From Octopus sinensis (taxonomy: Eukaryota): DNA of 64,000 bases. The notes beneath the pieces were generated by a model. It was not told the DNA's origin. It was given only the letters and a program-made list of their open reading frames with translations, and did not search any database. The stretch covers positions 56,606,001-56,670,000 of the forward strand of contig NC_043013.1 in the NCBI RefSeq assembly GCF_006345805.1. Reading direction: 5' to 3'. Shown piece after piece: positions 16,569 to 61,040 of the stretch (position 1 is its first letter; each line of letters begins with the position of its first letter). The translations under genes and the position numbers were made by a program.

Positions 16569-16840
16569 ATTCTTAAACAAGAACATTATTGAGTGTGACT
16601 TCAAAGTTTGAGCCAGTTAAGCCTCTGTTTCCCAGCTAATGTTACGAAAGCACTCTCATCGGAACAGAACCATTATGTTTATGTTTGTTTTCATGTTCAG
16701 TTATAATAAAAATAATTTTACATTAATCTGATGGGTTACTCTATACTTCAGTTGAGTACAAACTTTGAAGTCACTATCAATAATATTCTTGTCGAAGAAT
16801 AATAAATTTGTAATCTATAGAAGTAAAGTATAGTCACCCA
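16569..16840 (+). mobile_element. Short foldback element with degenerate hammerhead motif (Penelope-type pLTR remnant)
   Basis: Inverted arms 16569-16610 and 16759-16800; motif ctgatgg-gttactc..gagtac-aaac-tt(tg)aa-gtc at 16728-16772. Confidence 0.5.
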
Positions 16841-17774
16841 TCAGATTAATGTGTGTGTGTGTATATATATACACACACACACATAGATACATGCATACAT
16901 ACATTCATACACAAATACATAAACACACACACACACACACATATATATCAATCTATGAATGTGTGTGTGTGTATCTATATAGCTATATGTACATACACAC
17001 ATCCATCCACACACACATCCATCCACACACACATCCATCCACACACACATCCATCCACACACACATATATATGGTTACATTTCTAGATACTATTTTATTC
17101 TGTTAATGTAAATTGGTGAAAGCAGAACTCATTCTAATATATCATGTCATTCTTTCAGTAATGCCAGCCATTACTCCCTCTCCCCTGAGTTACTTCCTTT
17201 TCAAATCCATTCTTCTCCCTTTCCATTATCTTCAACTAATATTTACCATTCATGACACCCACCCCTCATTCACCATTCAATACATTTATTGCAATATATT
17301 TCTAATGACCTCCACCTCTGTTTCTTTCCCACAGAAATCCTTGCAACCTTTCTCATCCCTTCCTTATGGTTTTGTCTCTGTGCTTTCTTCTGTATTCGCT
17401 TCTTGGGCATGGTTTTTTGAGGGTTCGCTCTGGCACCTCATAACCCCCACAGTCAACCATCCCAAACAACCATACAACATGCAGGTTTGTCCTGAATCTT
17501 CTCCACACCAATAAACCAGTTCCTGTTTTTCCTCTCATAATTTAATCTCCTCAGCATCTAATCTAAAGCCACATCCCTCTCTTTGGTTCTCATTCTCAAT
17601 CAAAGGGGTCTCTTTAGTGTCATAGGTTACAAGACAAATCTCCCTAAGATTTAGTCGGATAAAGAATGCACACAGTAGTCTCTGTAAGGTGACAGGCATT
17701 GGGAAGGGCCCACAGTCACAGAAGGCCATTCTAAAACTGGGTCATTGGAGCAAGAGATGGAAAGCAAACAGGAA

Positions 17775-17950
17775 ATGATGACGGTGATGATGATAATGAT
17801 GATAATGATGATGACGACAACGATGATGATGATTACAATGATTATGGTGATGATGATGATGATAACGACGACAACGATGATTATGATGATGATGACGACT
17901 GCTGCTGCTGATGATGATGACAACGACGACGATGGTAATGATGATGATGA
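17775..17950. repeat. (GAT)n degenerate trinucleotide microsatellite
   Basis: Seen directly. Confidence 0.95.
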
Positions 17951-18262
17951 CACTACAACAGTACATATTTCTATGTCCAAGAGACAACCTGGATGAGAAC
18001 AAGTGAAATAAAATTTAATATGGTTGGCATCGATTTTATTCTTCACCTTTTCAGGTTCAACGAATAAAGCTTTAGACTGATGCCAGAGCAGAGTCATCCC
18101 TCTTTAGTCAAACAAATCGATCTTAGGATTTATTTTCTAAGCCTGGTACTTTATCAATCTCCTTTTGCTGAGCTGCTAGGTTACAGGCATGTAAACAAAC
18201 CAACACAGGTTGTCAAGAAGTGGAAGAGGACTCAAACACAAAGGCAGTCCATATATATATAT

Positions 18263-18316
<54 letters not shown>

Positions 18317-18322
18317 TTATAT

Positions 18323-19835
18323 ATCATCATCATCATCATCATCATTTAACGTCCGTTCTCCATGCTAGTATGGGTTGGACAATTCGGCCAGGATCTGAGA
18401 AGCCAGAAGGCTGCACCAGGCTCCAGCCTGATCTGGCAATGTCTCTACAGCTGGATGTCCTTCCTAACGCCAACCACTCCGTGAGTGTAGTGAGTGCTTT
18501 TTACGTGCCACTGGCACGGAAGCCAGTCAAGGCGGCGCTGGCATCGGCCACGTTCGGATGGTGCTTTTTTATGTGCCACCGGCATGGAAGCCAGTTGAGG
18601 AAGCACTGACATTGGCCATGTTCAGATGGTGCTTTTTACGTGCCACCGGCACAGGGATCACAGCTACAATTTCCATTGATTTTTGATGTTGGTGTACTTG
18701 ACTCAATAGGTCTCCTGAAGCACAGGGTCGAAACGGTGTTTCTTTACTTGCCACCTGCACAGGAGTCAGTCCAGCAGTCCTGGCAACTGCCAGGTGCCAG
18801 TCATAGGATTGGTTCAATTTCGATTCCAATTTCACTTGCCCCAACAGGTCTTCACAAGCAGAGTTTAGTGTCCAATGAAGGGAGGTTGGCATGGGTGCCA
18901 GTCGTCGGATGAGGTTCGATTTCACTTGCCCCAACAGGTCTTCACAAGCAGAGTTTAGTGTCCAATGAAGGGAGGTTGGCATGGGTGCCAGTCGTCGGAT
19001 GAGGTTCGATTTCGCTTGCCTCAACAGGTCTTCACATGTCCAAGGAAGAAAAGGCATGCATATGTGGGCTGGCTACATCCCTGGCAAGGGACACGGGATG
19101 GAGTCACTTGTCCTGCTGGGTCTTCTCATGCACAGCATATTTCCAAAGGTCCTGGTCACTAGTCATTGCCTTGGTGAGGCCTAATGTTCGAAGGTCATGC
19201 TTCACCACTTCATCCCAGGTCTTCCTGGGTCTACCTCTTCCACAGGGTGTGACACTTTTTCACACAGCTGTCCTCATCCATTCTCGCCACTTGACCACAG
19301 CTGATGCTTCTTAGGTCCAACTTTTCTCTCAAGGTACTTACACTCTGTCAAGTATGCACACTGACATTACACATCCATCGGAGCATACTGGCTTCATTCC
19401 TCGTGAGCTTACGCATGTCCTCAGCAGTCACGGCCCATGTTTCACTGCCATGTAGCATGGCTGTTCGTACACATGCGTCATACAGTCTGCCTTTTACTCT
19501 GAGCAAGAGGCCTTTTGTCACCAGCAGAGGTAAGAGCTCCCTGAAATTTGCACAGGCTATTCTTACTCTAGCAGTTACACTTTCAGCACACCCACCCCCA
19601 CTACTGACTTGGTCACCTAGGTAATGGAAGCTATCAACTACTTCTAGTTTTTCCCCCTGGAAAGTGACAGAAGTTTTTTCTGCAGATTTTCAGTGTTTAT
19701 TGCTCCTGAGCATCTGCCACATACAAAAACTATCATCCCAGTTAGCCTTCCTTTGATATTACTGCACATCTTATGTGTCCATAGCTTACACTGGGTACAT
19801 CTTATAGAGTTTCTACCTATGCCTTTACTACGGAT
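18323..19835 (-). mobile_element. RTE-clade LINE, 5'-truncated 3' portion with (GAT)n tail
   Basis: Homologous to 31202-33525 (GEKLEVVDSFHYLGDQVS, WANFRELLPLL, RKTWDEVVKHDL regions); same 3' UTR ending ggacgttaaa(tga)n. Confidence 0.9.
18829..19036. repeat. 90-bp tandem repeat (about 2.3 copies) inside the RTE 3' UTR
   Basis: ccaacaggtcttcac recurs at 18841 and 18931, with a variant at 19021. Confidence 0.92.
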
Positions 19836-19844
19836 CTATATATA

Positions 19845-20430
19845 TATATTGTTATATTTCAGAATGGTCATTTTGCCAGTTTAGCCAATAAAATCACATG
19901 CACTATATATATTTGGTGTTACTTTGCTTCAGTGTTATTTATTATTATCATATGTAATGATAATAATGGGTGAATGTAAACACATGAACAAAATTAGAAC
20001 AAAAGCAACAACAACAAAAAAAAATACAAATTACATGAATGTATATAAACAGAAGATACAAATATTACAGGCATCCCCCCCACACACACTAAATAAACAT
20101 AGATGCACATAGAGATATAAGCATGTGCAAATGAAGACATACAATAGAAATACAAAATGGCTGACGGTTAGTAAGGAGAGACACAAATAAGTGAGAAGAA
20201 AACAAAGGACCACTGATGCAGTCACAGGAGTGTGACGAAAGAACTCTGGCCGAAATAAGATTAAGATTAATGTAAAAAATAAATAACACTGAAGCAAAGT
20301 AACACCAAATATACAGTGCGTGTGATTTTATTGGCTAAACTGGCAAAATGACCATTCCGAAATATAACAATATCTGTTTCAACACGCGACTTCACATAAA
20401 AAATCTTGCACAACAAATATATAAACTTAT
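19845..20430 (+). mobile_element. Solo Penelope-like pseudo-LTR with inverted ~100-bp arm (same family as 52597-54993)
   Basis: 19945-20373 is near-identical to 54560-54993; 19845-19943 is the reverse complement of about 20277-20373; inserted in (TA)n. Confidence 0.88.
20208..20251 (+). ncRNA. Minimal type-I hammerhead ribozyme-like motif
   Basis: gacca CTGATGCA gtcac-aggagt-gtgac GAAA gaac TC tggcc: perfect 5-bp stem II, stem I cca/tgg, very short stem III. Identical at 54826-54869. Confidence 0.65.
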
Positions 20431-20460
20431 ATATATATATAGATGTATATATATATATAT

Positions 20461-20850
20461 ATAATTTACAAGATAAGGGCAGAAGAAAAATTCTAATGCC
20501 AAATATGCCAAAACAAAAAATTGTTGATAACCATGAGTAAGTATTTCATTTATATCTTGCATATTTGCCACTGAAGAGGGGAAAATTTCTTATGAATTAA
20601 TCCCGAAATTGGACCAATGCGGTAATAACGAATTTTTTTTAGAGATTTCTATCGGTTTGTTTCGAGACACATAAATTTAATGGTTATCGACAATTTTTTG
20701 TTGCGGCATATTTGGCATTAGAATTTTTCTTCTGCCCTTATCTTGTAAATTATGTATAAATTTTACCTTTAAAGGCATTTTTTGATATGCTGGCCATTGA
20801 TAAAATTTTTTTCCCGAAAAAAATTTTATCCTATATTAATTATATATATA
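20461..20850 (+). mobile_element. Second foldback element with hammerhead-like core, different family
   Basis: 74-bp inverted arms 20461-20534 and 20680-20753; ttgcca CTGAAGA gggg...ccc GAAA ttgg-a-ccaat at 20565-20625. Confidence 0.65.
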
Positions 20851-21133
20851 TACACATAGATATATATATGTATGTGTATATATATATGTATGTGTGTGTA
20901 TATATATATTATACATGCACATATATTGGGCTTCTATCAAGTCTACTCATAATTCTTTTCTTCTGTTGTAGAAGACAATCCTCCCCACACAAACTACACA
21001 CACACACACACCCACACATCCTCCCACACACAACATCTCCCACACACTCAAGGTGTCATAGAGTAGAATTGAACCCAGAACCCTGTAACTATGAGGTTAA
21101 ATAGCAAATCTCTAACCAAACATCCATCCTACA

Positions 21134-21171
<38 letters not shown>

Positions 21172-22351: not shown

Positions 22352-22394
<43 letters not shown>

Positions 22395-23021: not shown

Positions 23022-23067
<46 letters not shown>

Positions 23068-25862: not shown

Positions 25863-25884
<22 letters not shown>

Positions 25885-26019
25885 CGTTATATTTCGGAAT
25901 GGTCATATTGCCAGTTTAGCCAATAAATCTTGCACAACAAATATTTAAACGTATATATATATTATCATTGTTGTTGTTTAATGTTTGCCTTCAATGCTGT
26001 ATATATATACATATATATA

Positions 26020-26056
<37 letters not shown>

Positions 26057-26142
26057 CGTTATATTTCGGAATGGTCATATTGCCAGTTTAGCCAATAAAT
26101 CTTGCACAACAAATATTTAAACGTATATATATATTATATATA

Positions 26143-26240: not shown

Positions 26241-28307
26241 TGTGTATATGTATGTATATATACATACATATATATACACAGTAATGCACACTTAGATAAA
26301 TAGATACCAACATGCATACATACAGGCATACATGCGTACATACATACATACATACATACATGCATACATATGTGTACGTGTGTATTTGAGCATTTCAATC
26401 AATATATACACCCTTGAAATGTCTATAGTACCCCAGATTATCGCTCAGTGCAAAGACATAATTTAATATTAAAGAGAAATTATTGGGAAACTGCTTCATG
26501 TATATTTACTTGTGGGTGCAAACAGGACATGTCTTGCCTTTCTAACAGCCTCTTTTAAATACACTGCTGTGAGTTTTTATGAGGTTTTCCAAGAAGTTTT
26601 TCATGGTTACACCATGGTTGTATTTCATTTCTCTATAAGCACCATACAATTATGTTTTTCTCTTTTTACTATGAAACTCTTTTCAAATCACGACTCAAAC
26701 ATTATTTACACTTAAAAAAATACACAAGAATAAATATAAAACCTGTACGATACAACTGGACTTGAAGTATAACAGAATATGTGTGTTAATATGTAGCAAA
26801 AGGAGTTAGCTACTATGTGGTCATTCAGTTTGCTTGACATAGCAGCTAAATGGAAGACCAAATCAATAGTCTTGTCTTACACATAAATAATATATATATA
26901 TTGATACCATCAGATCGAATGGTATTGCCCAAGTGTCGAAACCATAATGGTATCTGTGGGGCAGCTGATGATGGTGGTATGTTGGATCGTTGGTATGGCT
27001 GTTTTTGTACATGTGGAATAGTGTTATAACACACACTTTTGATATACATGTACACACACACACACACACACACACATACATATATACATTTATATATGTT
27101 TACATATACTCATGCACACACACATATATATGTGAAAATACATATGTATAAATATACACATACGGTTGAGCGTGCTCGTTCCCAGTGTCACCTTACTGGT
27201 ACTTTGTGCTAGTGAGATGTTAAAAAACATTCAATTGAGGTCGCTGCCAGTGCCACTGGACTGGCTCCTGTGCAGGTGGAACTTAAAAAACACCATTTGA
27301 GTGTGGCTATTGCCAGTGCTGCCTGACTGGCCCTTGTGCCAATGGCAAGTAAAAGCATCCATACACTCTCAGTGGTTGGCATTAGGAAGGGCATCCAGCT
27401 GTAGAAACTCTGCCAGATCAAGATTGGAGCCTGGTGCAGCCATCTGGTTTGCCAGTCCTCAGTCAAATTGTCCAACCCATGCTAACATGAAAAGAGGATG
27501 ATGCTTATATATTTACATGCATACGCGTAAATCCTTTGTTCTGTGGACCAAGATTTACCTGGAATTTGATGCTATAAACAGAAGGATCTGATGCTTGTTC
27601 TATAAGTCAACTACTACAGGTCCACACTTTGTTTTGATGTTACCATGAAATGCCATAAGACATTCTGTTTCAGAGAGAAAAAAACTTTGGATTTGTAGCA
27701 TTTAACTTTTAACATCATTTTACGAAGAGATATCTCTTTGTGTGTGTATAAGGATGATGCTGGCCAATAAATTTGTACATTGAACAGAACTGTCTTAAAT
27801 ATCCTCTAGGTATTTAGTTCCCTATATTCTGTTCCTGAGGTAAACTTATCGATCTTATAAGCAGTGATCTCTATGATAAATACTTGAGAAGAACAGTGGG
27901 TTAATAAAATAGTCAAAAAACCCTGAAAGGAACTCCCTAAGCAGGACTATCATCAAAGAATAATAAAAAAAAATATTCAATTTTTCTTGAAATAGAACCA
28001 ATGTGTGTATTGGCATGATGACCCTACCAAAATACAATAAAATTTTTTTCAATCCTGCATTTACAACAGAAACTTCTCAAACTAAATACAAAAATGAAAT
28101 TCTGTAATAATGCATTTTATATGTACTAATTACTTTAAAAGGTTAATTAGAGAACTTGAGAAACCCAGAATTTTTGTCGTTGTTGTTTAGCTCCATGTCA
28201 GCTCTGGTCAAGGGCACCTGCCACCCCTACACATATTGGTTTGGTCTTTAGAAAGGGGCTATGCCCTTGATGTATGTGTTCAATCCCTCTAAGACTAGTG
28301 AGGTACA

Positions 28308-28625
28308 CGAGGAGCATTTGAAAAGTATTTGACTCTTTTTCCCACCAAAACTAATGCTGTGTGGGGAAAGTCCTTTGGGTGGGAGGTGGCACCACCCTTC
28401 CTGCACATACATGATTTTGCACTGGTAGGAATAGGGTACAGATGTGTAGTATATGCCCACTGGCTTGTTATTTTCACATAAGATGACCGAACACATCAAG
28501 CAGGGACCATAAACCCATGTTTCATCACCACCAGTGATGATAGTTTCCATGAAGTCTGTGGTTTGCACAGTCCAGCAGATCCTGAGCAATTCCCATGTGG
28601 AGTTCCTTTTGCAGCAGTTCCACAT
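28308..28625 (-). mobile_element. Mariner remnant
   Basis: METIITGGDETWVYG motif in ORF 28248-28625; one TIR-like end cgaggagcatttgaaaagt. Confidence 0.6.
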
Positions 28626-29494
28626 AAATTGTTCTAAGGAAAAACGTGGTAATGAAGGAATTCCAGAGGGTAAATATTCTGGGGCACAACGATTGTAATT
28701 TAGTTAAAATGTAACCAATCCACCTCTCTTTGGCCCAAATCCACATCGTGTCAGTGGGGTTTGGCTGGCTACGAGATGCTCTGTCTTAAGAAGCCCTTGG
28801 ACTCCCACTCGCTTTTACTATCTTGTCTTCGCTCGTATATTTTCTCTCTGCTTCACCTGTTCTCTTCTTCTTCTTTTTCTCTGCCCCCTTTTCTCACTGT
28901 CTCTTATTATAAATGGTCCCTGGATGGTAGACAGTGATCAAAAATATTCCAGCCATGACTTTCCTCCCAATTTTTTTTTTATCCATGGATTACATTAACC
29001 AATGTCATTTATCTTTTATCTCTCGCTTGTTTCACTCGTTGGACTACAGCCATTGCTGCAACACCATGTTGAAGGGTTTAGCCAAGCAATCAACTCCAGT
29101 AGTTATTTTTAAAGCCGGTTACTTATTCAATTAGCCTCTTTTACCAAATCACTAAGTTATGGAGGCGTAACATATGCATTTTTGTAAAAAAACAAAACAT
29201 ATAGCAATTTTTTATTGGAGGGAGATTTGGCTGCAATTTTTAGTAGACTTAGCAATGAGCAGAGACTTCAATGTTGAATGGAGTGAAGCTGAGATGGTTT
29301 GGTAAAATTTTGCTGCAAGTTCATATAAATTAAGAAGTGAATATGAAATAGGTTTTATTGATTTTAGTGTTGTAGCTTAAATATGAAGGAATTAGATAAA
29401 AGTTGATGATAGCGAAGGTGTAAACTGTAAATGACTTACTGACACTATAAAGATTATTTTATTACATATTGAAGAGGGTGGAGGAGAAAGGTGG

Positions 29495-31201: not shown

Positions 31202-33525
31202 TCATCATCATCGTTTAACGTCCGTGTTCCATGCTAGCATGGGTTGGATGGTTCGTCCAGGGTCTGGGAAGCCAGGAGGCTGCACTAGGCTCCAGTCTGA
31301 TCTAGCAGTGTTTCTACAGCTGGATGCCCTTCCTAACGTCAACCACTCCGTGAGTGTAGTGGGAGCTTTTTACTTACCACCGGCACAGGTGCCAGGGGAA
31401 GCTGGCAGTGGCCACAATTGGCTGGTGCTTTTTTACGTGCCACCTGCACAGAAGCCAGTCAAGGTGGCGCTGGCCTCAGTCACATTTGGATGGTACTTTT
31501 TACGTCCCACCGGTATAGGTATCGCAACTACTATTTCCATTTGATATTTATTTTGATGTTGATGTACTTGACTCTACAGGTCTCCTCAAGCACAGCAAGT
31601 CATGGGCCACGTTCAGATGGTGCTTTTTACGTGCTGCCAGCACAGGTATCGTAACTACAATTTCCATTTGATATTTATTTCGATATTGATGTACTTGACT
31701 CTACAGGTCTCCTCAAGCACAGCAGGTCACTCTATGATCCAAGGTAAGCACAGCAGGTCGTTCTGCAATCCAAGGTACTTTGGAAGGGCTGGGGCTGTGC
31801 AAAACTGGTGGAGGAAGCAGCCCAGGTCTTTGAAGTCACAGCATATCTCCAGAGATCTTGGTCTTCCATCATTGCCTTTATGAGGCCCAATGTTCGAAGG
31901 TTATGCTTGACTACCTCATCCCATGTCTTCCTGGGTCTACCTCTCCACCTGATACCTCCAACTGTTTGGGAGTGGCACTTCTTCACACATCTCTCCTCAT
32001 CCATCCGCAGTACATGACCATACCAGCGCAAACGTCTCTCTTGCACACCACATCTGATGCTTCTTATGTCCAGCATTTCTCTCAGGGCGCTTACACTTTG
32101 TCGTGTGTGCACACTGACATTACACATCCAGTGGATCCTGCTAGCTTCATTTCTTTCAAGTCGACGCATGTCCTCTGCAGTCACAGCCTATGTTTCACTA
32201 CTGTGAAGCATAGCGGTTCGCACACATGCATCATACAATCTACCTTTCACTCTGAGCGAGAGACCCTTTGTCGCCAGTAGGGGTAGGAGCTTTCTAAACT
32301 TTGCCCAGGCTATTTGTATTCTAGTGGTGACACTCTGAGCATCCACCTCCACTACTAACTTGGTCTCCTAGGTAGTGGAAACTATCAACTACTTCTAGTT
32401 TCTCCCCCTGGAGTGAGATGGAATCTGTTTTCTGAGTATCTGTGGTGTCTATTGCCCCTGTGCATCTGCTGCACATGAAAGCTATCTTATCAGTTAATTT
32501 TCCTTTGATATTGCTGCACCTCTTATGCATCCATAGCTTACACTGGGTGCATCTTATGGAGTTTCTACCTTCACCTTTCCTACAGATCGAGCAGGGCCAA
32601 CTGCCCGAGGGGGTGTGTGATGAGTTCGCCTTTCTGCTTACTATAACTTTGTTCTTTGCTACATTTACTCTAAGGCCCTAAACCTTGCTTCCACACCCGA
32701 AATTTCTTTTCTAGTTCCGGTAGTGATTCTGCTATGAGGGCCAGGTCATCAGCATAGAGGAGCTCCCAGGGACAACCCATCTTGAATTCCTCTGTTATTG
32801 CCCGGAGGACTATGATGAATAAAAGGGGACTGAGTGCTGAACCTTGGTGGACTCCTACTTCTACCCGGAATTCTTCACTATACTCATTGCCAATCCTAAC
32901 CTTGCTGACAGCCTCTCTGTATAGGGCCTGTACAGCCCTTATTAACCATTTGTCAATCTCCAGTTTCCACATTGCTCACCAGATAAGGGATCGGGGGACC
33001 CTGTCAAAGGCTTTCTCCAAGTCCACGAAAGCTATGTAGAGGGGTTTACCTTTAGCTAGGTATTTCTCCTGCAGTTGTCGAACCAGCAATATGGCATCAG
33101 TGGTGCTTCTACCTGGCACAAAACTGAACTGCATCTCATCTAAGCAAATTCTCTCCCTAATGAGATGGGCTATGACCCTCTCTGTGACCTTCATCACCTG
33201 ATCCAACAGTTTAATACCCCTGTAGTTATTTCTATCTAGATAGCAGTTGACTATGGTGCTGCTACGCCAGTCATTCGGTATGACTCCTTTATGAAATACC
33301 TGGTTTACAATGCGGGTGACTAGGCCATAGCCCACACCACCAGATGTTTTAAGCATCTCAGCAGTGATTCTTGATGGGCCGGGGGCTTTTCATGGTTTCA
33401 TACCCTTAATTGCCTTAACTACTAGGGAGCTCTCTATTCGGATAGCTGGTCCCTCTACTGGGTCAACAATTTTCAGGCTCTCCTCCTCCCATTCATTCTC
33501 CACATTCTCTCATAATGGCTTCTTT
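31202..33525 (-). mobile_element. RTE-clade LINE, 5'-truncated, with disrupted reverse transcriptase
   Basis: ORF pieces: NYRGIKLL...FVDLEKAFDRVPR (32976-33356), GVHQGSALSPLLF...LLYADDLAL (32670-32972), RRLRWYGHVLRM...GRPRKTW (31732-32184); stops and frameshifts; (GAT)n tail. Confidence 0.96.
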
Positions 33526-39903: not shown

Positions 39904-41260
39904 TTACTGAGCATAACCATCCTTGGCACATAAGTAATGTGTGTGTAATGTTTGGTGAAAATCGGTTGAAAACTGTAGAAATGCATACATATTACAAACA
40001 CAGACACACACAATCCTTTGTTTTATTTTTATAGATATGTGTGCATGTGCTCATGCATGTGTGTGTGTGTGAGTCAATGATTCAGTAAGGAGTCCACATG
40101 ACCCCTGAGAGCACGTAAGAGATTTTGTTAAAATCTCTAATAAATTGATTATGCTTCTGCAATGCACAATTTTTATTTTTTTTTACACAATTCCTAATAA
40201 TATTTATTTAAAAAAAATATAATAGGATTTTTAAAACCATTAAATGACTTAGAGGGTCAAGTTGAGTAAAATAGGAATGAAAGGGATCCACAGGTAAAAA
40301 AAAAAACAATGGTTGAGAACCAATAGTCTTTGTGAAGGCTTACCATACAATTTGCATTTTTCATCAAATGCTTAAGCAAATGGTTGAGACATTTGTTGAC
40401 CTTTGCAGCCAAAAATTCCTCCTTCTGCTCTCTCACTCACCCTCTCTCTCTCCCTCTTTCTCTCTCTCTCTCTGTGCTTTCAAAGATAAGGAGACAGAAA
40501 ACTCTCTTGAATAACAATATAACCATCAGGGGTTAGTCACCAAAAAGACAGTTTTAAAACAACACCTTCATAAAATGAGTTTGCTCAAGGCCTGCTTGCA
40601 TGGAAAAATGGATATAAAACAAATGAGAGAGGAGAGAGAGAGGGGGGGGGAGAAAAAGATACACAGAGAGATAATGATTAAACATGATTCTAACTTCTAA
40701 GTTTCCCCAAACTTAGTGTTTCAAACAGTGAAGGTCTTAGGGTTTCTCTGTTCTGTTTAATCTCTGTAAAATGATGGAAGTTGGGAAGAATAAAAAGATG
40801 AGGGGAGGGGCAATATCTAGACTTAGTTGAGTCGACCTGTGCCATGTCATCGCTGTCGTAAAACTCTTGTGAGTTCAAATGAATTCTTTCCAGCGGCATT
40901 AAATTTAAAGAAAAAGGATCACAGGAAGATCAGGAAAATCAGGAATGCAGCACCTTGGGTCACTCAGCCATGCTGATGTACTTAATGTACTTATTAATAC
41001 TAAAAGCACAGGCATAGACAGGCATAGCTGTGTGGTAAGAAGCTTGCTCTCAAGGGTCATGTGGACTCCTTACTGAGAATCCTTGGGACACACACTCACA
41101 CACACATGCATGAGCACATGCACACATATCTATAAAAATAAAACAAAGGATTGTGTGTGTTTGTGTTTGTAATATGTATGCATTTCTACAGTTTTCAACC
41201 GATTTTCACCAAACATTACACACACATTACTTATGTGCCAAGGATGGTCGTGCACTGTAA
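39904..41260. repeat. Inverted duplication of ~210 bp (39904-40112 vs 41045-41260) containing a Helitron-like 5' end
   Basis: tctataaaaataaaacaaaggattgtgtg...caaccgattttcaccaaacattacacacacattacttatgtgccaaggatggt and its flanks occur in opposite orientations. Confidence 0.88.
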
Positions 41261-43125: not shown

Positions 43126-46020
43126 GTGTGTGTGTGTGTGTGCATCTTTATTTGTAAATTTGTAAAACATTCAATAATAAAAAAGAGACCAAAAGTGGAT
43201 TTGAAGAAAGAATTTACATTAAGAATAGAATGGTGAAAATTATGAAGGAAACAAAGAGTAGAATTGGTTCCATGTTTAGCAAACTGCCTCAGGTGTAATA
43301 GAAAACAACATCGTTGCGGTTCCCTTTACCTGTGTGTCCCAGTAAGAAAATATTTCATGAAATGAAGCCAAAATACAACACAATTTTGTATTTCTTTGGC
43401 TTTTGTTCATCACATCTATTTATTTTATTGTTTTTCTTTATTTATTGTTATATTTATAGTTTTTGATTAATTTAAAGATTTTTATGCCTGTTGGGATTGA
43501 CTGGACTCTTGGAGGGTGGTCTAGGGAGAATTAGGAAACAAGCTATGAACATTGGAATGGTAGTTGTTGTGATGGTGATGGTAGTGTTGGTGGTGGTATT
43601 GTGGTGGTAGTGATGATGAAGGAGGAAGAGCAAGGAGGAAGAGCAAGGAGGAAGAAGAAGGAGGAAGAGCAAGGAGGAAGAGCAAGGAGGAAGCAGAAGG
43701 AGGAAGAGCAAGGAGGAAGAGCAAGGAGGAAGAAGAAGGAGAAGAGCAAGGAGGAAGAACAAGGAGGTAATATTTATTAAGTGAAGAAGTTGTAAACTCA
43801 AATGTGCAGACATTTCCTTTTCTTGTTTTTTGGTTTATATTTTCAAACTGTAAACTAAAGTCTGTTGAATCATCTCTATTCCTTTCACCCCTCCATGTAC
43901 GATCTTGGACTGACCCAAGATATCAATACTACACTGCTATTGATACATGCAATTAAATTTTCCTCTTATGGATATTATCATAATATATAAACAATGCCCC
44001 AGCATGGCCACTCAATGTCCAGTGAATGAAACCAGTAATAAAAGACTAAAAGAATTCTCCCAAGTAAGAAATCAATATTTGAATCTGTGCAAACGTATTC
44101 CAGCTTTGGTACCAAGAAATACCAAAACTTATAATGGAAAGAAAATAGAAGCCTTTCCTGAAGTTATTCTTTCCGAGATTTCTAATAGTTTTGAAAGGAA
44201 ACTGATCGATGGCGATACCTTAGAGAGGTTCTTCGACAATAAATTAATGTCTGATCTTTCATATTGCAATGACCTGAGGTGATTGCATCAGGGGGTTGTG
44301 AGAGAGTGAGGGGTGAGGCAATTATTTATTACAAATTCATTATGAAGAAAATGGTAGATATCAAAATATCAGACACTTATGAGTGGGGGGAAGGGAGGAG
44401 AACATGTGGCGTATCGATGGCCACTCAGTGATTGCCACCACTTTACAACCAAGTGGTTCTGGGTTCGATCCTGTTGTGTGCCACCTTTTACTACTGTAGC
44501 CCTTGGGAGTGGATTTGGCAGAGGGAAACAGAAAGAAGCCTGCTGTGTGTGTGCGTGTATATATATATACATGTGTGTGTGTGTGTGTGTGTGTGTGCAT
44601 CTTTATTTGTAAATTTGTAAAACATTCAATAATAAAAAAGAGACCAAAAGTGGATTTGAAGAAAGAATTTACATTAAGAATAGAATGGTGAAAATTATGA
44701 AGGAAACAAAGAGTAGAATTGGTTCCATGTTTAGCAAACTGCCTCAGGTGTAATAGAAAACAACATCGTTGCGGTTCCCTTTACCTGTGTGTCCCAGTAA
44801 GAAAATATTTCATGAAATGAGGCCAAAATACAACACAATTTTGTATTTCTTTGGCTTTTGTTCATCACATCTATTTATTTTATTGTTTTTCTTTATTTAT
44901 TGTTATATTTATAGTTTTTGATTAATTTAAAGATTTTTATGCCTGTTGGGATTGACTGGACTCTTGGAGGGTGGTCTAGGGAGAATTAGGAAACAAGCTA
45001 TGAACATTGGAATGGTAGTTGTTGTGATGGTGATGGTAGTGTTGGTGGTGGTATTGTGGTGGTAGTGATGATGAAGGAGGAAGAGCAAGGAGGAAGAAGA
45101 AGGAGGAAGAGCAAGGAGGAAGAGCAAGGAGGAAGCAGAAGGAGGAAGAGCAAGGAGGAAGAAGAAGGAGGAAGAGCAAGGAGGAAGAACAAGGAGGTAA
45201 TATTTATTAAGTGAAGAAGTTGTAAACTCAAATGTGCAGACATTTCCTTTTCTTGTTTTTTGGTTTATATTTTCAAACTGTAAACTAAAGTCTGTTGAAT
45301 CATCTCTATTCCTTTCACCCCTCCATGTACGATCTTGGACTGACCCAAGATATCAATACTACACTGCTATTGATACATGCAATTAAATTTTCCTCTTATG
45401 GATATTATCATAATATATAAACAATGCCCCAGCATGGCCACTCAATGTCCAGTGAATGAAACCAGTAATAAAAGACTAAAAGAATTCTCCCAAGTAAGAA
45501 ATCAATATTTGAATCTGTGCAAACGTATTCCAGCTTTGGTACCAAGAAATACCAAAACTTATAATGGAAAGAAAATAGAAGCCTTTCCTGAAGTTATTCT
45601 TTCCGAGATTTCTAATAGTTTTGAAAGGAAACTGATCGATGGCGATACCTTAGAGAGGTTCTTCGACAATAAATTAATGTCTGATCTTTCATATTGCAAT
45701 GACCTGAGGTGATTGCATCAGGGGGTTTGTGAGAGAGTGAGGGGTGAGGCAATTATTTATTACAAATTCATTATGAAGAAAATGGTAGATATCAAAATAT
45801 CAGACACTTATGAGTGGGGGGAAGGGAGGAGAACATGTGGCGTATCGATGGCCACTCAGTGATTGCCACCACTTTACAACCAAGTGGTTCTGGGTTCGAT
45901 CCTGTTGTGTGCCACCTTTTACTACTGTAGCCCTTGGGAGTGGATTTGGCAGAGGGAAACAGAAAGAAGCCTGCTGTGTGTGTGCGTGTATATATATATA
46001 CATGTGTGTGTGTGTGTGTG
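43126..46020. repeat. Near-perfect tandem duplication, 2 x ~1.44 kb
   Basis: 43126-44580 vs 44581-46020; identical 111-aa ORFs at 43947 and 45377; breakpoints in (TG)n; differences are a ~25-bp GAG-rich repeat indel, one substitution and one 1-bp indel. Confidence 0.97.
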
Positions 46021-47310: not shown

Positions 47311-47690
47311 TATGAATGTTTTGCTTAATGAGTAGATATCAAAATATCAGACACTTATGAGTGGGGGGAAGGGAGGAGAACATGGCTCTATAGATATTAG
47401 AGCATTTATAGATATTTATCTATCTATAAATGGTCTAATATCTATAGAGCCTTGGTTTTTTTTTATCTCATTACGCAAAAAAATCTTATATACACCTGCT
47501 GACATAGAACCAACGTTGAACCCTTTATTCGTAAAATTACCGAATCTGGAACTTAACTATGGTCTGTCTATAGCACTTATTCAGAGAAAGAGAGAGAGAG
47601 AGAGAGATAGACAGATAGTTTTAAATGTGTCTTTGTGAGTTGTTGTATATTGGTATAAGCATACAAGTGTACAAAGAGATATGTGTGTGT

Positions 47691-52540: not shown

Positions 52541-52797
52541 ATATATATATAATGTGTGTGTGCATGAATGTGTGTATATATATATTATATATATAAATAT
52601 TTTTTGTACAAGATTTTTTTATGTGAAGTCGTGTGTTGAAACAGATATTGTTATATTTCGGAATGGTCATTTTGCCAGTTTAGCCAATAAAAACACACGC
52701 ACTATATATTTGGTATTATCTTGCTTCAGTGTTATTTATTTTTTACATTAATCTTAATCTTATTTCAGCCAGAGTTCTTTCGTCACACTCCTGTGAC

Positions 52798-54387
52798 CAC
52801 ATCGATCGACGTGGTTTTTGTGGCGGAGAAGTGCATGGAGATGATCAATGAGAGCAAGGTGGAGTTCCGCAATGTCAACACAGAGGAACAGGGCCTCCTA
52901 CTTAGACTGACTTATGACAACGAATACCAAGATAAACATAATCTTAGTAGTTTCTGCCCCAGTAGACGTTTAAGAGGTAGACCACCCACAATTACTTCTA
53001 TAGCTAGGACGACCCATACAGAAAGATGGAGTGGATGGACCAGAGCCATACGGAGCCCCGCAAATGTCCATCAGGTAAAGAAAATGATCGCACATGCACT
53101 AGGAGCTAGTATAAGAGTTACCCTAAAAGGCCACACGTTTAAGTTTAACAATAAAATATATGCCAAGGCGAGGGGGCAGTCATCGGCATTAGTATCGCTG
53201 GGGATGTGGCCAACCTTTTCATGGTATGTTGGGACAGAAGGCTTAAAGAATGACTAACACAGAACTCCATACTCGTAAACATGTACTCTCGCTATGTTGA
53301 TGATATCAACATAGTAGTAAAAGCACCCCCACAAGAGAGTAATGTTGATATAGTAATAGAAACTAATACTATGGAGAGCATCCAGCAAATAGCTAACTCC
53401 ATCCACCAAAGGATTAAGGTCACAATAGACTACCCCACTAAACAACCCAACCATAGACTATCAGTACTAGACACAGAACTCTAGCTAGAAACTGTGAATA
53501 ATAAAACCCAAATCCTTCAATCGTACTATGCCAAACATATGGCCTCAAAATACTTGATCCACCGGAACTCAGCAATTGCAGACAATGCCAAATTCAATAT
53601 TTTGATGGCAGACCTCATCAGAATAATGAGACACATACAGTATTTCATTCACCGCATGCAATTCTCAGGTTACAGCCATAAAGAAAGGATCAGAGTATAC
53701 AAAGGAGCCATGAAGAAATTTGATAATATATTATGTAATGATAGGAATGAGATTTGCCCACTCTATAGGAACAAGTCATGGAACACTATAGAAAGGACAA
53801 AAAAGAAAATAGGGAAGGCCAACTCTTGGTATGATAGCCATAAATACCAGAATGTCATGTTCGTTGACACCACCCCTGGAGTTGAACTGGCGTACCGCTT
53901 TAGAAGGACCCTAGACAAACTTAAGTTAAGGATGAAGGTTGTTGAAAAACCAGGCAACCCTATCAAATCTATAATCGGTAGAACCTACCCTTTTAGTAGA
54001 AGCCCCAGTATAGATAAGTACTGTACTGTATGTAGATTTAGCCCACAAACAAACTGTAAAGCCAGAAATGTAGTCTATAGTATAAGATGTATAGAGGGAC
54101 GATGCAGTAACAAGACAATGACATACGTAGGGGAAATGGCCAGAAGCATAGGAGAGCGGGTGAATGAACATTGGAGACAACTCAAGGAAGGTAAAAGCTC
54201 ATCGATTCTGAACCAACACGCCGAACAGGAACACGGGGTATCAATCAACAACATAGAAATTAAAATATTGTCCACACATAGAACAGATGCAACAATCAGA
54301 CAAATTACAAAAGCTACAAACATACTAGAAAATAAACCTAGCCTGAATAGGAAACTAGAATGGAACACTAGCACACACAACATATGA
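52798..54387 (+). pseudogene. Penelope-like RT plus C-terminal GIY-YIG endonuclease, disrupted
   Basis: FKFNNKIY..Q.EGAVIG (frameshift near 53163), YSRYVDDI, LSVLDTEL, Cys-rich linker CTVC...C, NVVYSIRC...YVGEMARSIGERVNEH...H...H...LNRK; in-frame stops at 53251 and 53482. Confidence 0.92.
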
Positions 54388-54825
54388 CGATAGAGGATCC
54401 CCATAAACTGGTTACAATATAAACAAAACCGAAAACATAATAAATAAATAAACAAATAGAAATAGATAACTATATAAGTTTTTTTTTTTAATTTAAAAGA
54501 TATTTTATTTATTTATTATTATTATTACTAGTATTGTTGTTATACATACATACATACAAGCATATGTAATGATAATAATAAGTGGATGTAAACACATGAA
54601 CAAAATAAGAATAAACAAAAACAACAACAACAAGAACAAATTACATGAACATATATAAACAGAAGATACAAATATTACAGGCATCCCCCCACCCCCCCCA
54701 CACACACTAAATAAACATAGATGCACATAGAGATATAAGCATGCGCAAATGAAGACATACAATAGAAATACAAAATGGCTGATGGTTAGTAAGGAGAGAC
54801 ACAAATACGAAAGAAGAAAACAAAG

Positions 54826-54869
54826 GACCACTGATGCAGTCACAGGAGTGTGACGAAAGAACTCTGGCC
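54826..54869 (+). ncRNA. Hammerhead-like motif in the Penelope pLTR
   Basis: Same motif as 20208-20251, on the coding strand downstream of the ORF, where PLE hammerheads are expected. Confidence 0.7.
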
Positions 54870-55596
54870 GAAATAAGATTAAGATTGATGTAAAAAATAA
54901 ATAACACTGAAGCAAAATAACACCAAATATATATAGTGCGTGTGTTTTTATTGGCTAAACTGGCAAAATGACCATTCCGAAATATAACAATATATATATA
55001 TATATAGTAGAAATATGTTACGAAAAGAAAATATAAAATACACGTGGAAATGTAAGGGTAAAATATGAAAGGTCAACGAAAATGCATATTGCAAATAGAA
55101 AAAGGCTATTTATGACAGGTAGTGACAAATATATACATTTAGATTGACTGAGGTAGTAATACGAGTCATATAGGCCATTATTATGAGATGATTATAAGAT
55201 GATAATAAAGTAAGAGAATGTGTGTGTGTGTGTGTGTGTATGTGTGTGTGTGCATGAATGTATATAGATATATACATATGTGTGTGTGTGTGTGTGTGTA
55301 TGTGTGTGTGCATGAATGTATATAGATATATACATATGTGTGTGTGTGTGTGTGCATTTATATATATGTATGTATACACATTTATATATGCTGGTAGCTC
55401 TTAAAATGCACCTGTGCTGGTGCCACATAAAAACAACCTGTACACTCAGTAAACTGGTTGGTATAAAGAAGGGCACTGGTGCTTGGTGCAGCCCTCTGAC
55501 GTGCCAGCTTCTGTCAAATGGTCCAACTCATGCCAGCATGGAAAACGGACGTTAAATGGTGAGGATGATGATAGATAGATAGATAGATAGATAGAT

Positions 55597-55738: not shown

Positions 55739-55773
<35 letters not shown>

Positions 55774-56600
55774 AAGATGCTTTAAATACTTAATTCAAAA
55801 CTTTTAAACTGTCATATACGTTATATATTTATACTTATACATATTTACATATATTTTTATACATATTTATATTTATTTATATATTTTTAATACAACAATT
55901 TTTTTTCACACGTGTATATCTTTATGAGGAGTTTTCTGATACTGATTTCCTAATATTTATGATAATAATATATTATTAAAAAAAAAATATATATATATAT
56001 AATAGCTCATATTAAATATATAAATACTTTAATAGTATTAATACTTTGATACAATAGAGCACTCAATATAAATTCAGTATATAATATTCTCTTTGAATAT
56101 ATTTAACTAAAGATTTATATATACATACATATATGGAAAGAGTCCAGAAGCTGGCTACCCGCATGGTTCTTGGTCTCAAGCATTTGTCTTATGAAGAAAG
56201 GCTGAAGACGCTCGACCTTTATTCCCTCAAAAAACGCCGCCGCCGTGGTGACCTCATTCTCGCTCACAACATCATAAGCGGAAAGTGTAACCTCTCGAAA
56301 GAGCTGTTCTTCACTCCTGCTCCAGAACATCGGCTGCGTGCTCACTCCGAAAAGCTCTATCTGCGACGATTTCATCTCAATCGAAGGAGAGGGGCTTTCT
56401 CCGTCTGGGCTGCAGATCCGTGGAATAAGCTGCCGGATGAGATAGTGAAGATGCCGATGACCACTCGGTTCAAAGTCTCTCTTGACCAGTAATGGCCTGA
56501 ACTCTTTGCATGAACATCCTCCCTGTACATAACTCCATATCCCCCTACATGGCCTTGCTTTTTGCTTTTTGAGCCAAAAAATTAACTTAACTTAACATAT

Positions 56601-56646
<46 letters not shown>

Positions 56647-58564: not shown

Positions 58565-58908
58565 CAAGGATGAGTCAAAAAGTAATGCCATTTTGTTTAG
58601 GACAGGTATAATTACCAACACAAGAACATGTATCATACATCAAAATGAAGCTGGTCCTCTGTGGATCACATCCTTACTTCTCAACATAGTCACCGTTTCT
58701 CTCAATAGCAATGTTCCACCTTTGAGAGCATGTATGCTTGCCATGTAAAATTCTGTTGACTGTTGTTTGAGCCACTTCTTCACTACAGTTTTCACTTCAT
58801 CACTGGAATAATGTTTGCCTCTCAAACTCTCTTTCGTGGTGCCAAAGAGATGATAGTCCAAAGGCACTGAATCTGGTGAGTGTGGCATTACTTTTTGACT
58901 CACCCTCG
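58565..58908 (-). mobile_element. Internally deleted mariner (344 bp) retaining the transposase C-terminus
   Basis: TIRs caaggatgagtcaaaaagtaatgcca / tggcattactttttgactcaccctcg; SPDSVPLDYHLFG..KESLRGKHY motif. Confidence 0.85.
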
Positions 58909-59524
58909 GATATATATTCATATATACATATGTACACACAACCAAGCACTTATACATAGTACACATTTTTGTCCATATAAAGCATGTATACCTTTATATA
59001 CATATCCATATATACATGGGTGCATGTGTGTGTATGCATATGCAGATAAGTGAACAAGTATGCATACATGAATAATACATACACACTAAAAAAATGTACA
59101 CTCACTCTTACAAAATATTGGTACAGATCATGTAAAGTCAAAAAACAATTTGATTGGTTAAATATTTTTAAAAAATAGAATCCTGTATAATCTAATTAAA
59201 TCAATCTAACGGAAAAACTAAGATGTTTTGCTTCTAAAAGAGAAGATGCTTATATCAATATAAATAAAAATAAAATTACTTAAGGGTTAAGGGCACCTGC
59301 ATCTTCAAAAAAATAATGAATTTTTATTAAATGCTACGTCTCCATTTTCTTACTTTCTTTTGAATGATTATAAACCATGATTAATGTATAAACCTATTGT
59401 TTTATAAATGTTATTAGTCACAACAAATATTAGGTATTGAACTAGTAATTCATTAGACGATACCATCCCTTAACGAGGCTAATTTAACCTCTAATTGAAT
59501 TTATATATATCTATATATATATAT

Positions 59525-59910
59525 TCTTTTATTCATTTATTTGTTTCAGTCATTTGACTATGGCCATACTGGAACACTGCCTTTAGTCGAGCAAATCGAC
59601 TCCAGGACTTATTCTTTGTAAGCCTAATACTTATTGTATCAGTCTCTTCAGCCGAACTGCTAAGTTACGGCGACGTGAACACACCAACATCGGTCGTCAA
59701 GTGATGGTGGTGGGAAAAGACACAAACATACACACACACAGGTATATATGCGATGGGCTTCTTTCAGTTTCTGGCTACCAAATCCACTCACAAGGCTTTG
59801 GTGTGCCAGAGGTGATAGAAGACACTTGCCCAAGGTGCCCCACAGTGGGACTAAACCCAGAACCATGTGGTTGGTAAGCATGCTACTTACCACACAGCCA
59901 TTTCTGCACC
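59525..59910 (-). mobile_element. Complete S1 tRNA-derived SINE
   Basis: Head ggtgcagaaatggctgtgtggtaag, B-box-like ggtttagtccc, CORE-like ccttgggcaagt, internal (TA)/(TG), A-rich tail. Confidence 0.85.
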
Positions 59911-60345
59911 TATGAATATATATTTGTGTATAATCAATGAAGGCGTATGGCTTTGTGCTTAGGGTATTTGGTTTGGGATTGTAAGGTTGTAAATTTCCAG
60001 TGGCAAATTTTGTCCTTGAGCAGGACACTTTATTCCCCATTGCTCCAGTCCACTCAGTCAGCTGGCAAAAAGGGCTTGTACCTGTAATTCAAGAGGAGCT
60101 GGACTTGTCATGCTGAATCTCCCTGAGACCTACGTTAAGGGTACGCATGTCCATCTGTGGAACTTTCAGCCAGTTGCATGTTAATTTCTCAACCCAGATC
60201 AATTGTAAGCTTCATTATCATAACTGACAGACAGCCCCTGTCTATAATCACTTCTTTAAAAGAAAAGAAAAACTATATTCCCTTGACAAATTTTTTTTTT
60301 TTTGTTTCAGTACCTTACATTAACTTTTATAGTTCTATATATATG

Positions 60346-60374
<29 letters not shown>

Positions 60375-60376
<2 letters not shown>

Positions 60377-60870
60377 TATATAAAAGGGCTTAGTAAAATA
60401 AATTACTTTGCCACATACTGAACTCATTAGAAATAGCAGCCAAAAAAGTTTTTTTAGCTATTTCTAATACTTAAATTTCTTAATTTGGATTTGGATTTTA
60501 AGTGTTTCCAAATCCAAATTAAGAAATTTTGGGCTGACGAAAGAAATGTCGAATTTTATTTGGCTGATCTAGAAACGTAACGTTCTCAAATAATCTTTGC
60601 ACTTGTGAGTTTTTAATGTTTTTTACCCCCATACCTTCGTGGGTTATTCTGAGTAAACACTATCTGAGAGAAATTTTCTTTAAGTATTAGAAATAGCTAA
60701 AAAAACTTTTTTGGCTGCTATTTCTAATGAGTTCAGTATGTGGCAAAGTAATTTATTTTACTAAGCCCTTTTATATAATGTAATATTTTGAATTCGCCTT
60801 AAATGGTCCTTTTACATACTGAATACTTGGTGAAATTGATTAATAACTAATTAATTTTACCCTCAATTGT
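60375..60870 (+). mobile_element. Foldback element with perfect 100-bp arms, inner 23-bp hairpin and hammerhead-like motif
   Basis: Arms 60375-60474 and 60680-60779; inner hairpin 60473-60495 / 60507-60529; tttggg CTGACGA...GAAAcg-taa-cgtt ctcaaa at 60528-60590. Confidence 0.75.
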
Positions 60871-60899
60871 TGATATATATATATATATATATATATATA

Positions 60900-61040
60900 T
60901 TCCTTGTTTCTTTCTGTGTTCCTTTCTGTGGAAGAGCGCAGTCTCGAAACATTAAAGGCTTTTCAATTCCCGAGCATTTGTTCTCAACACCACCTGTCTT
61001 CGTCTTTTGTTTTTTTTTTGAATTCTCCTTATATATATAC
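60900..61040 (+). mobile_element. Short Penelope-type tail with degenerate hammerhead motif
   Basis: ccttt ctgtggaa gag-cgcagt-ctc GAAAc att aaagg at 60921-60958; a similar, more decayed piece lies at about 15240-15375. Confidence 0.45.

What the first reader, a model, noticed from the sequence alone, without database searches (positions are those of the whole stretch)
16569..60958. Recurrent hammerhead-bearing foldback mini-elements in (TA)n tracts, from at least four unrelated families
Seen: four 270-590 bp segments with no similarity to each other (16569-16840, 19845-20430, 20461-20850, 60375-60870) share one architecture. Each has a (TA)n flank, an inverted copy of the element's 3' part, a CTGANGA-like...stem II...GAAA motif with a very short or palindromic stem III, and then the direct 3' part. 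A fifth has the motif without arms (60921-60958). Established: Penelope-like elements carry minimal type-I hammerheads in their pLTRs and often integrate with an inverted pLTR. One of the four is clearly the pLTR of the PLE at 52.6-55.0 kb. Inference: the others are ultra-short insertions or non-autonomous retrozyme-like derivatives of further PLE families. Their density would make them a large source of ribozyme motifs and long dsRNA hairpins.
Basis: partly seen in the sequence, partly recalled or inferred. Interest (0 to 1): 0.72.

Follow-up and report, generated by a model that had tools for sequence, protein, structure and literature searches.

The report
Penelope retrotransposon stubs and retrozyme units
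The five segments are short end-pieces of five unrelated high-copy repeat families, three tied to protein-coding Penelope-like retrotransposons and two made of protein-free tandem units with a predicted self-cutting RNA, and their mirror-image layout is the known Penelope insertion pattern, likely made by copying one RNA from both ends of a cut in a TA repeat.

Summary
The architecture is real and of a known kind. All five segments are high-copy repeats (1,365-3,007 first-look candidates). S2 is the pLTR of an RT+GIY-YIG family, S5 and S1 are ends of two further PLE families, and S3 and S4 come from ORF-less head-to-tail units of 466 and 566 nt (non-LTR retrozyme type). In 56 of 74 foldback loci one outer end lies at the pLTR end and the other at the tail end; none has the same site twice. 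That is the published PLE inverted-pLTR-plus-tail pattern, not a MITE. Correction: S1 in the window has no intact hammerhead. Only S4 matches its family consensus, and Rfam finds none. Three families have non-canonical consensus cores (U4C, A6U, A9C). Stem I covaries across three S4 subfamilies. Added here: 5' ends of short copies pile up just below a TATA box or at an Inr-like motif in three coding families, suggesting run-off copying to the transcription start. Cleavage, circles and dsRNA are untested. The scan found this system before on other DNA of this genome.

The parts
16566..16623 (-). S1: pLTR 3' end with stem II and the 3' half of the hammerhead; outer end at the pLTR end site (P)
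   Evidence: family positions 685-742, 90%
16624..16677 (-). S1: about 55 nt that follow the tail in a long family copy (start of the element body)
   Evidence: 79% match in L188/L214, where it runs on into RT-like remnants
16678..16762 (-). S1: tail
16760..16852 (+). S1: 3' half of hammerhead, pLTR end near 16803, partial tail, then (TG)n
   Evidence: family positions 699-788, 87%
19846..19946 (-). S2: inverted arm starting at the pLTR end
   Evidence: 101 bp, 94%
19949..20426 (+). S2: 5'-truncated pLTR to 20373 plus tail 20374-20426; TATA-like ATATAAG at 20115
   Evidence: 94% to family reference
20207..20251 (+). S2: minimal type I hammerhead-like motif, A9 replaced by C, bulged stem I, predicted site CUC after 20246
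   Evidence: A9C in 54 of 55 copies read
20453..20534 (-). S3: inverted arm starting at the pLTR-end site
   Evidence: 82 bp, 93-94%
20533..20840 (+). S3: 5'-truncated copy of a 466-nt non-coding unit; P site 20761, tail 20762-20840
20565..20625 (+). S3: hammerhead with near-palindromic stem III; canonical in the family, this copy has a stem I mismatch (20570) and G at the cleavage position (20619)
   Evidence: core CUGAAGA in 19 of 22 copies, UA site in 19 of 22
25881..25951 (.). S2-family micro-foldback (47-nt arm plus 30-nt tail end), no hammerhead
26053..26123 (.). duplicate of the S2-family micro-foldback
52594..52803 (-). S2-family long copy: inverted pLTR with tail
   Evidence: 96%
52813..54387 (+). 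5'-truncated, broken RT (YVDD) plus GIY-YIG ORF
   Evidence: relatives with open frames up to 1044 aa
54523..54993 (+). direct pLTR ending at P, hammerhead-like motif at 54825-54869, then (TA)n
60367..60475 (-). S4: inverted arm starting at the pLTR-end site
   Evidence: 109 bp, 98%
60497..60876 (+). S4: 5'-truncated copy of a 566-nt non-coding unit; P site 60786, tail 60787-60876
   Evidence: 99% to family reference
60528..60590 (+). S4: hammerhead, core CUGACGA, 6-bp stem I, A-A in place of G10.1-C11.1, near-palindromic stem III, predicted site GUU after 60584
   Evidence: core in 34 of 35 copies; descriptor hit
60901..61028 (+). S5: 3' end of a coding PLE family, no arm; decayed hammerhead-like motif 60921-60958 with U at position 6
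   Evidence: 85%; U6 in 31 of 41 pattern hits, 2 or more of them spurious; upstream RT/GIY-YIG in long copies

Best explanation
These segments are 5'-truncated copies from three protein-coding Penelope-like families (S1, S2, S5) and two ORF-less tandem hammerhead units (S3, S4), and each foldback was likely made by a PLE RT/GIY-YIG enzyme priming twice on one RNA at a double-strand cut in (TA)n. Shown: family identity, fixed 3' sites, one-tail-only asymmetry, variable inner ends, TA flanks, tandem units, ORF linkage. Inferred steps: the enzyme cuts both strands; one DNA end primes copying from the tail end (T), the other from the pLTR end (P) 54-94 nt upstream; both cDNAs stop early and are joined head to head, often through a few shared bases. 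Many short copies of the coding families would be run-off products: copying starts at the tail next to the 5' pLTR of the mRNA and ends at the transcription start. Such stubs would lose the TATA box, so protein-free derivatives would stay expressed only as head-to-tail units, which is what S3 and S4 are. The hammerheads are predicted to work as dimers through palindromic stem III and would release unit-length RNA; cleavage is probably not needed for insertion.
For: Foldback ends: 56 of 74 loci are P+T, 0 P+P, 0 T+T, 18 with an eroded end; 5 of 5 foldbacks among 8 loci picked by endonuclease protein, not by tail, are P+T. Both flanks TA-rich in 49 of 59 S2/S3/S4/S4c foldbacks. Junctions within -2 to +8 nt in 36 of 50 of those families. 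In 10 of 46 P+T foldbacks the P arm reaches at least 10 nt further 5' than the T arm (up to 938 nt), which self-copying of the first cDNA cannot give. Pieces within one locus share non-majority bases at 12-33% of variant sites against 1-8% between loci. PLE-protein match upstream on the same strand: S2 12 of 30, S5 4 of 55, S1 1 of 60 plus L214 (E 1e-12 to 1e-16), S3 0 of 30, S4 1 of 30 (1170 nt away across a TA flank), S4c 0 of 30. Exact tandem junction: S3 9 of 30, S4 17 of 26, S4c 24 of 29, S2 0 of 40, S1 0 of 30. One array has 14 full 546-nt units, 99.6-100% identical, ending at T plus (TA)n. 5'-end pile-ups: S1 24 of 43 at -6..+10 with TATATAAAG at -36; S5 29 of 53 at -74..-59 with an Inr-like motif at -71; S2 12 of 32 at -83..-56 with ATATAAG at -98 (positions from C3; P 5e-5, <5e-5, 0.0015 against constant-rate truncation). 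In vitro, a PLE protein cuts and extends both strands and starts at two RNA sites that bound the tail, and hammerhead mutants still insert (PMC11167929).
Against: No coding partner was found for S3 or S4; PLE mobilisation rests on the insertion signature. Most loci were the top hits of tail-containing queries, so P+P could not be seen there and T arms are biased long; 29 of 46 P arms are nested in the T arm, which fold-back copying also predicts. Pile-up windows were chosen after seeing the data, BLAST ends are good to a few bases, S2's set was selected near the pile-up, and only 2 of 15 unselected S2 ends fall there. No window copy ends at a pile-up. S3 shows only a weak cluster and S4 none. 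Promoter motifs are read by eye; D. virilis Penelope has a TATA-less internal promoter (PMC2377424). Pfam support is below cut-off (RVT_1 E 2e-4; GIY-YIG E 0.054), and 3 of the 4 S5 protein hits are to queries taken from the same loci. Monomer folds are no better than shuffles.
Confidence: 0.8

Rival explanations
1. The inverted arm arises when one cDNA folds back and copies itself, or by self-priming on an antisense RNA, and the endonuclease trims the second end at the P site.
For: 29 of 46 P arms are nested in the T arm and 7 are about equal; short shared bases at junctions; self-priming on an antisense template was proposed for rotifer Penelope (PMC3846280 passages).
Against: 10 of 46 P arms extend beyond the T arm, four of them by 42-938 nt in young S3/S4 copies; two RT start sites bounding the tail, on both strands, were shown in vitro (PMC11167929).
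Confidence: 0.12
2. S3 and S4 are solo pLTRs of coding PLE families that I did not sample, and their tandems grow by local DNA duplication rather than from multimeric or circular RNA.
For: Only 30 of 2,300-3,007 candidates per family were examined; local duplications occur (S2 micro-foldback pair in the window; L022, L025); within-locus sharing of variants also fits duplication or gene conversion; the model is discussed in bioRxiv 10.64898/2026.07.22.740005.
Against: The tail-to-start junction is the same at 17 of 26 dispersed S4 loci and is kept between subfamilies 80% identical; arrays start with a truncated unit and end at P or T; 0 of 90 S3/S4/S4c loci have a contiguous ORF against 12 of 30 for S2.
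Confidence: 0.15
3. The segments are MITEs of DNA transposons that target TA.
For: Short, high-copy, inverted arms, TA flanks.
Against: The two outer ends are never the same site, inner ends vary, many copies have no arm, and three families run into RT/GIY-YIG coding sequence.
Confidence: 0.01
4. The hammerhead motifs of the variant-core families (S1 U4C, S2 A9C, S5 A6U) are catalytically dead and are kept, if at all, as folded signals or leftovers.
For: A9C in 54 of 55 S2 copies in a family with long open frames; position 6 changes and U4C give low activity in vitro (PMC3088659 passages); 8 of 9 tested frog elements did not cleave; S2 stem III gives no stable duplex by cofold.
Against: Stems and the other core bases are kept; palindromic stem III in S1, S3, S4a-c; stem I covaries across S4 subfamilies; the anole hammerhead cleaves only with protein present. 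This rival concerns the ribozyme only and is compatible with the main explanation.
Confidence: 0.45

Closest known systems
EN+ Penelope-like element insertions (PMC8557442 passages and section 11; PMC3846280 passages)
   Same: 5'-truncated copies, adjacent inverted pLTR, tail at one end only, partial tandems, (TA)n bias, junction overlaps.
   Different: Tails here are 54-94 nt against the 30-40 bp described; several families at once in one window; one-tail-only rule counted at 56 of 74.
Minimal hammerheads of metazoan PLEs (Cervera and de la Pena 2014, PMC4209133, parts 1-2 of 4 and supplement passages)
   Same: Type I, short or palindromic stem III, extra base between 9 and 10.1 (S1, S2, S5), mostly solo, also opposite-strand pairs 100-700 bp apart.
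   Different: Consensus cores U4C (S1, S4b), A6U (S5), A9C (S2) fall outside their CUGANGAH consensus; S4a/b lack G10.1-C11.1.
Metazoan non-LTR retrozymes (PMC7229834 passages; bioRxiv 10.64898/2026.07.22.740005 parts 1-3 of 5)
   Same: ORF-less head-to-tail units with one type I hammerhead each, dimers to long arrays, low GC, PLE link.
   Different: Units of 466-593 nt, longer than the coral, mussel and axolotl units; they carry the PLE P/T ends and inverted arms directly; circular RNA and cleavage not shown.
Poseidon of Anolis carolinensis, PAc (Frangieh 2024, PMC11167929, parts 1-2 of 4)
   Same: Two RT start sites bounding the tail, both strands cut and extended, AT-rich target.
   Different: Other clades here (S1 Hydra-like by protein similarity; S5 Neptune-like and S2 Neptune/Nematis-like by recalled motifs, no tree built); run-off to a transcription start is my inference from genomic ends.

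Membership tests
EN+ Penelope-like element | single ORF with RT and GIY-YIG endonuclease | tested here: met
   S2: open frames of 882-1044 aa with YVDD and YVGET motifs; Pfam RVT_1 E 2e-4, below cut-off. S5: RT plus YIGQT endonuclease upstream in 4 of 55 loci. S1: decayed long copy hits Hydra-type RT at E 1e-12 to 1e-16.
EN+ Penelope-like element | single ORF with RT and GIY-YIG endonuclease (S3, S4) | tested here: not met
   0 of 30, 1 of 30 (not contiguous) and 0 of 30 loci for S3, S4, S4c: non-autonomous
EN+ Penelope-like element | direct and inverted pLTR with tail at one end | tested here: met
   56 of 74 P+T, none P+P or T+T; S5 window copy has no arm
EN+ Penelope-like element | microsatellite or AT-rich target | tested here: met
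   both flanks TA-rich in 49 of 59 S2/S3/S4/S4c foldbacks; only 1 of 15 for the older S1
EN+ Penelope-like element | clade placement by RT phylogeny | not tested
minimal type I hammerhead | core CUGANGA ... GAAA ... UH | tested here: inconclusive
   met in S3, S4a, S4c consensus; one core base differs in S1, S2, S5, S4b
minimal type I hammerhead | stems kept through compensatory change | tested here: met
   stem I differs at 4 of 6 pairs among S4a, S4b, S4c and stays paired, except one C-A in S4b; not tested for the other families
minimal type I hammerhead | palindromic stem III for dimer folding | tested here: met
   cofold -6.6 to -12.5 kcal/mol for S1, S3, S4a-c; -1.7 for S5; none for S2
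minimal type I hammerhead | match to an Rfam hammerhead model | tested here: not met
minimal type I hammerhead | self-cleavage | not testable with these tools
   needs in vitro assay
non-LTR retrozyme | ORF-less tandem unit with one hammerhead per unit | tested here: met
   S3 466 nt, S4 566 nt, S4b 546 nt (14 units), S4c 593 nt
non-LTR retrozyme | linear and circular monomer RNA | not testable with these tools
   only contigs of runs of guessed kind were on offer
MITE | symmetric terminal inverted repeats with fixed ends and a TSD | tested here: not met
   asymmetric ends, variable arms; TSD cannot be read inside (TA)n

The most novel reading that the evidence does not exclude
The genomic ends record a whole PLE cycle: the enzyme primes at two fixed RNA sites from the two sides of one cut, often on the 5' pLTR-tail of the mRNA, so that it runs off at a Pol II start and mass-produces promoterless stubs; only derivatives that become head-to-tail keep a promoter and turn into retrozymes. 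Families spread to thousands of copies with U4C, A6U or A9C hammerhead cores, so either these are active natural variants or cleavage is dispensable in vivo.
Probability: 0.45. Interest if true: 0.62.

Novelty: new member of a known kind. Interest (0 to 1): 0.4.

Why it matters
The layout itself is ordinary for Penelope-like elements. The value is as a test set for an open question, how PLEs make inverted and tandem insertions and what their hammerheads do. Several young families with thousands of copies give countable P and T ends, candidate transcription starts, ORF-less tandem units and natural core variants that can be assayed side by side. My paper searches showed no paper on hammerheads or retrozymes in cephalopods beyond Naiad entries in PMC8557442, and the 2026 octopus repeat annotation has no occurrence of 'ribozyme'. 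These repeats are also likely to be mislabelled as SINEs or MITEs.

Tried and rejected
Rfam scans gave no hammerhead; microsatellite miRNA models filled the list. Pfam on the window's broken ORF gave nothing useful. Sequencing runs: no RNA holder listed on record; contigs of four runs of guessed kind cover the S4 unit in pieces and show a few strand-change joints and one end-to-start joint, which says nothing on expression, cleavage, circles or editing. A G8C core seen in one S4c copy looked like a dead-core family but is a single-copy mutation: 1 of 42 motifs. Search for coding partners of S3/S4 among 50 Hydra-type endonuclease loci (30 returned plus 20 picked from 150 scored) found only unlinked neighbours; the S2 endonuclease search returned only its own family at 89-100%. 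The antisense and minus-strand look-alikes in S1 were rejected as hammerheads. A splice acceptor at the S1 pile-up was considered; no shared upstream exon appears in the copies, and a TATA box lies at the expected distance. The pattern tally for S1 caught only 3 copies and was replaced by alignment of 46. Parts of the outputs were cut and not seen. Lunse et al. 2017 (PMC5785218) is not held and was seen only as a reference title; it may already list these core variants. File 1 of the PMC4209133 supplement and the preprint's supplements could not be searched.


Full report
Names used: S1 16566-16852, S2 19846-20426, S3 20453-20840, S4 60367-60876, S5 60901-61028. P is the pLTR end, T the tail end. 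The window lies in G000, a 2.72-Gb microsatellite-rich animal genome; 'octopus-like' is recalled, not a tool result. Hammerhead numbering is the standard one (recalled).

Observation. The inverted arms are real and far beyond chance (E 9e-8 to 7e-47), and the five segments do not match each other. S2 matches both ends of the element at 52594-54993, which has an inverted pLTR plus tail, a broken RT and GIY-YIG frame, and a direct pLTR. That element has the same layout as the small ones with 2.4 kb between the arms, and two 71-nt S2-family foldbacks at 25881 and 26053 have it with no hammerhead at all. So the foldback is a feature of insertion, not of the ribozyme. S1 holds only the 3' half of its family motif, twice. 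S2 with S3, and S4 with S5, are separate insertions sharing one TA tract.

Families. Each segment has 1,365 to 3,007 first-look candidates, of which 40 were scored and 30 fetched. S2: 12 of 30 loci have PLE protein upstream; relatives have open frames up to 1044 aa. S5: copies that reach further 5' run into RT and an endonuclease with YIGQT (4 of 55 loci, three of them matching queries from the same loci); Neptune-like by recalled motif. S1: an older family (74-94% identity); one long decayed copy continues from the tail through the 55 nt seen in the window into sequence that hits Hydra-type RTs at E 1e-12 to 1e-16; those RT families carry the DKT and CxCX5C motifs given for Hydra. S3 and S4 have no contiguous ORF in 30 loci each; their 5' side ends in TA, an inverted arm, unrelated DNA or the tail of the previous unit. 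Exact tandem junctions occur in 9 of 30 and 17 of 26 loci, units 466 and 566 nt (repeated fetches of one insertion were dropped: 1 locus for S2, 4 for S4, 1 for S4c). Two S4 relatives turned up by chance: S4b, 80% identical, as one array of 14 full 546-nt units plus a 118-nt start, 99.6-100% identical, ending at T and (TA)n; and S4c, about 70% identical in its 3' part, 593 nt, 1,646 candidates, 99-100% identical copies, tandem junction in 24 of 29 loci.

Hammerheads. Family consensus: S3 canonical core with stem III AUUGG-A-CCAAU; S4 canonical core but A-A at 10.1-11.1; S4c fully canonical with a GUC site; S4b and S1 U4C (S1 position 4: C 27, T 16 of 46, with G5 to A in 18, the pattern of CpG decay); S2 A9C in 54 of 55; S5 U at position 6 in 31 of 41 hits. 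Stem I reads UUUGGG/CUCAAA, UCCGAG/CUCGAA and UCUACG/CGUAGA in S4, S4b, S4c, so pairing is kept through changes on both sides. Stem III is self-complementary in S1, S3 and S4a-c, weakly in S5, not in S2, as expected for dimer hammerheads (PMC4209133). Against: no Rfam match, monomer folds like shuffles, and of the window copies only S4 equals its consensus. U4C and position-6 changes lower activity in vitro (PMC3088659 passages).

Ends. Of 74 foldback loci with both outer ends visible, 56 are P+T, 15 T+other, 2 P+other, 1 neither, none P+P or T+T. Tail-containing queries bias this against P+P, but T+T was free to appear (0 of 71), and 5 of 5 foldbacks among 8 loci picked by protein are P+T. 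In 10 of 46 P+T loci with a tight junction the P arm reaches at least 10 nt further 5' than the T arm; 29 are nested and 7 equal. A cDNA folding back on itself cannot copy what it does not contain, so those 10 need a second priming on the RNA. Arms and tandem units of one locus share minor variants far more than copies at different loci, which fits one template, though duplication or conversion would do the same. This agrees with the anole enzyme, which cuts and extends both strands and starts at two sites bounding the tail (PMC11167929).

5' ends. In copies not selected for a long 5' side, S1 ends cluster at -6..+10 from C3 (24 of 43), about 30 nt below TATATAAAG at -36; S5 ends at -74..-59 (29 of 53) around an Inr-like motif at -71; S2 ends at -83..-56 (12 of 32 in the selected set, 2 of 15 unselected) below ATATAAG at -98. 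A constant-rate truncation model gives P 5e-5, <5e-5 and 0.0015 (windows chosen after the fact). The clusters lie upstream of the predicted cleavage sites, so they are not ribozyme cuts. I infer transcription starts inside the pLTR, as known for Penelope (PMC2377424 passages; TATA and Inr-like motifs in rotifer pLTRs, PMC3846280 passages), and copying that begins at the tail near the mRNA 5' end and runs off. Such stubs would lack the TATA box, which would explain why lasting non-coding derivatives are tandem. No window copy ends at a cluster.

Comparison. Truncation, inverted pLTR, one-sided tail and (TA)n bias are described for EN+ PLEs (PMC8557442 passages). Solo and opposite-strand minimal hammerheads from truncated PLEs are in PMC4209133. 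ORF-less tandem hammerhead units are non-LTR retrozymes (PMC7229834 passages), argued to be non-autonomous PLE derivatives (bioRxiv 10.64898/2026.07.22.740005). PMC6765202 was seen as passages, PMC13282606 as passages. Earlier notes of this scan report the same layout, twin priming and retrozyme units elsewhere in this genome; I reached the family and end results before and the 5'-end result.

Verdict. Observation partly confirmed, interpretation supported, new members of known kinds. The end statistics, the start-site clusters and the variant cores make the PLE mechanism testable. RNA-level claims remain open. Interest 0.40.

Noticed in passing
   Followed up: partly
L217+L224 (G000:C4:115948878-115956634): Array of 14 near-identical 546-nt S4-related units with a truncated first unit and a U4C core, ending at the tail and (TA)n; looks like one multimeric insertion.
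   Followed up: partly
L283-L312: S4c: very young 593-nt ORF-less unit with a canonical hammerhead and a long stem II; 1,646 candidates.
   Followed up: partly
L258-L277: Abundant Hydra-type PLEs (12,996 first-look candidates for the endonuclease query) with Asn-rich linkers, some in 5.1-5.5 kb tandems, with canonical hammerheads in 4 of 12 loci scanned.
   Followed up: partly
window 39904-40113 and 41045-41260: Inverted repeat of about 216 bp, 93%, 931 nt apart, unrelated to S1-S5.
   Followed up: no
window 47381-47454: 74-bp palindrome, 89%.
   Followed up: no
window 16728-16765 (+): The antisense strand of the S1 tail forms a hammerhead look-alike (stem I, CUGAUGG, long hairpin, no G12) in the family consensus; the hairpin may mark the RT start region.
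   Followed up: partly
window 2054-2806, 28248-28703, 58640-58993 (-): Mariner-type transposase remnants by recalled motifs.
   Followed up: no
window 19003-19689, 31732-33389 (-), 56097-56492 (+): LINE RT remnants by recalled motifs.
   Followed up: no
window 43472-44282 and 44927-45712: Near-identical reading frames 1,430 nt apart: a local duplication.
   Followed up: no
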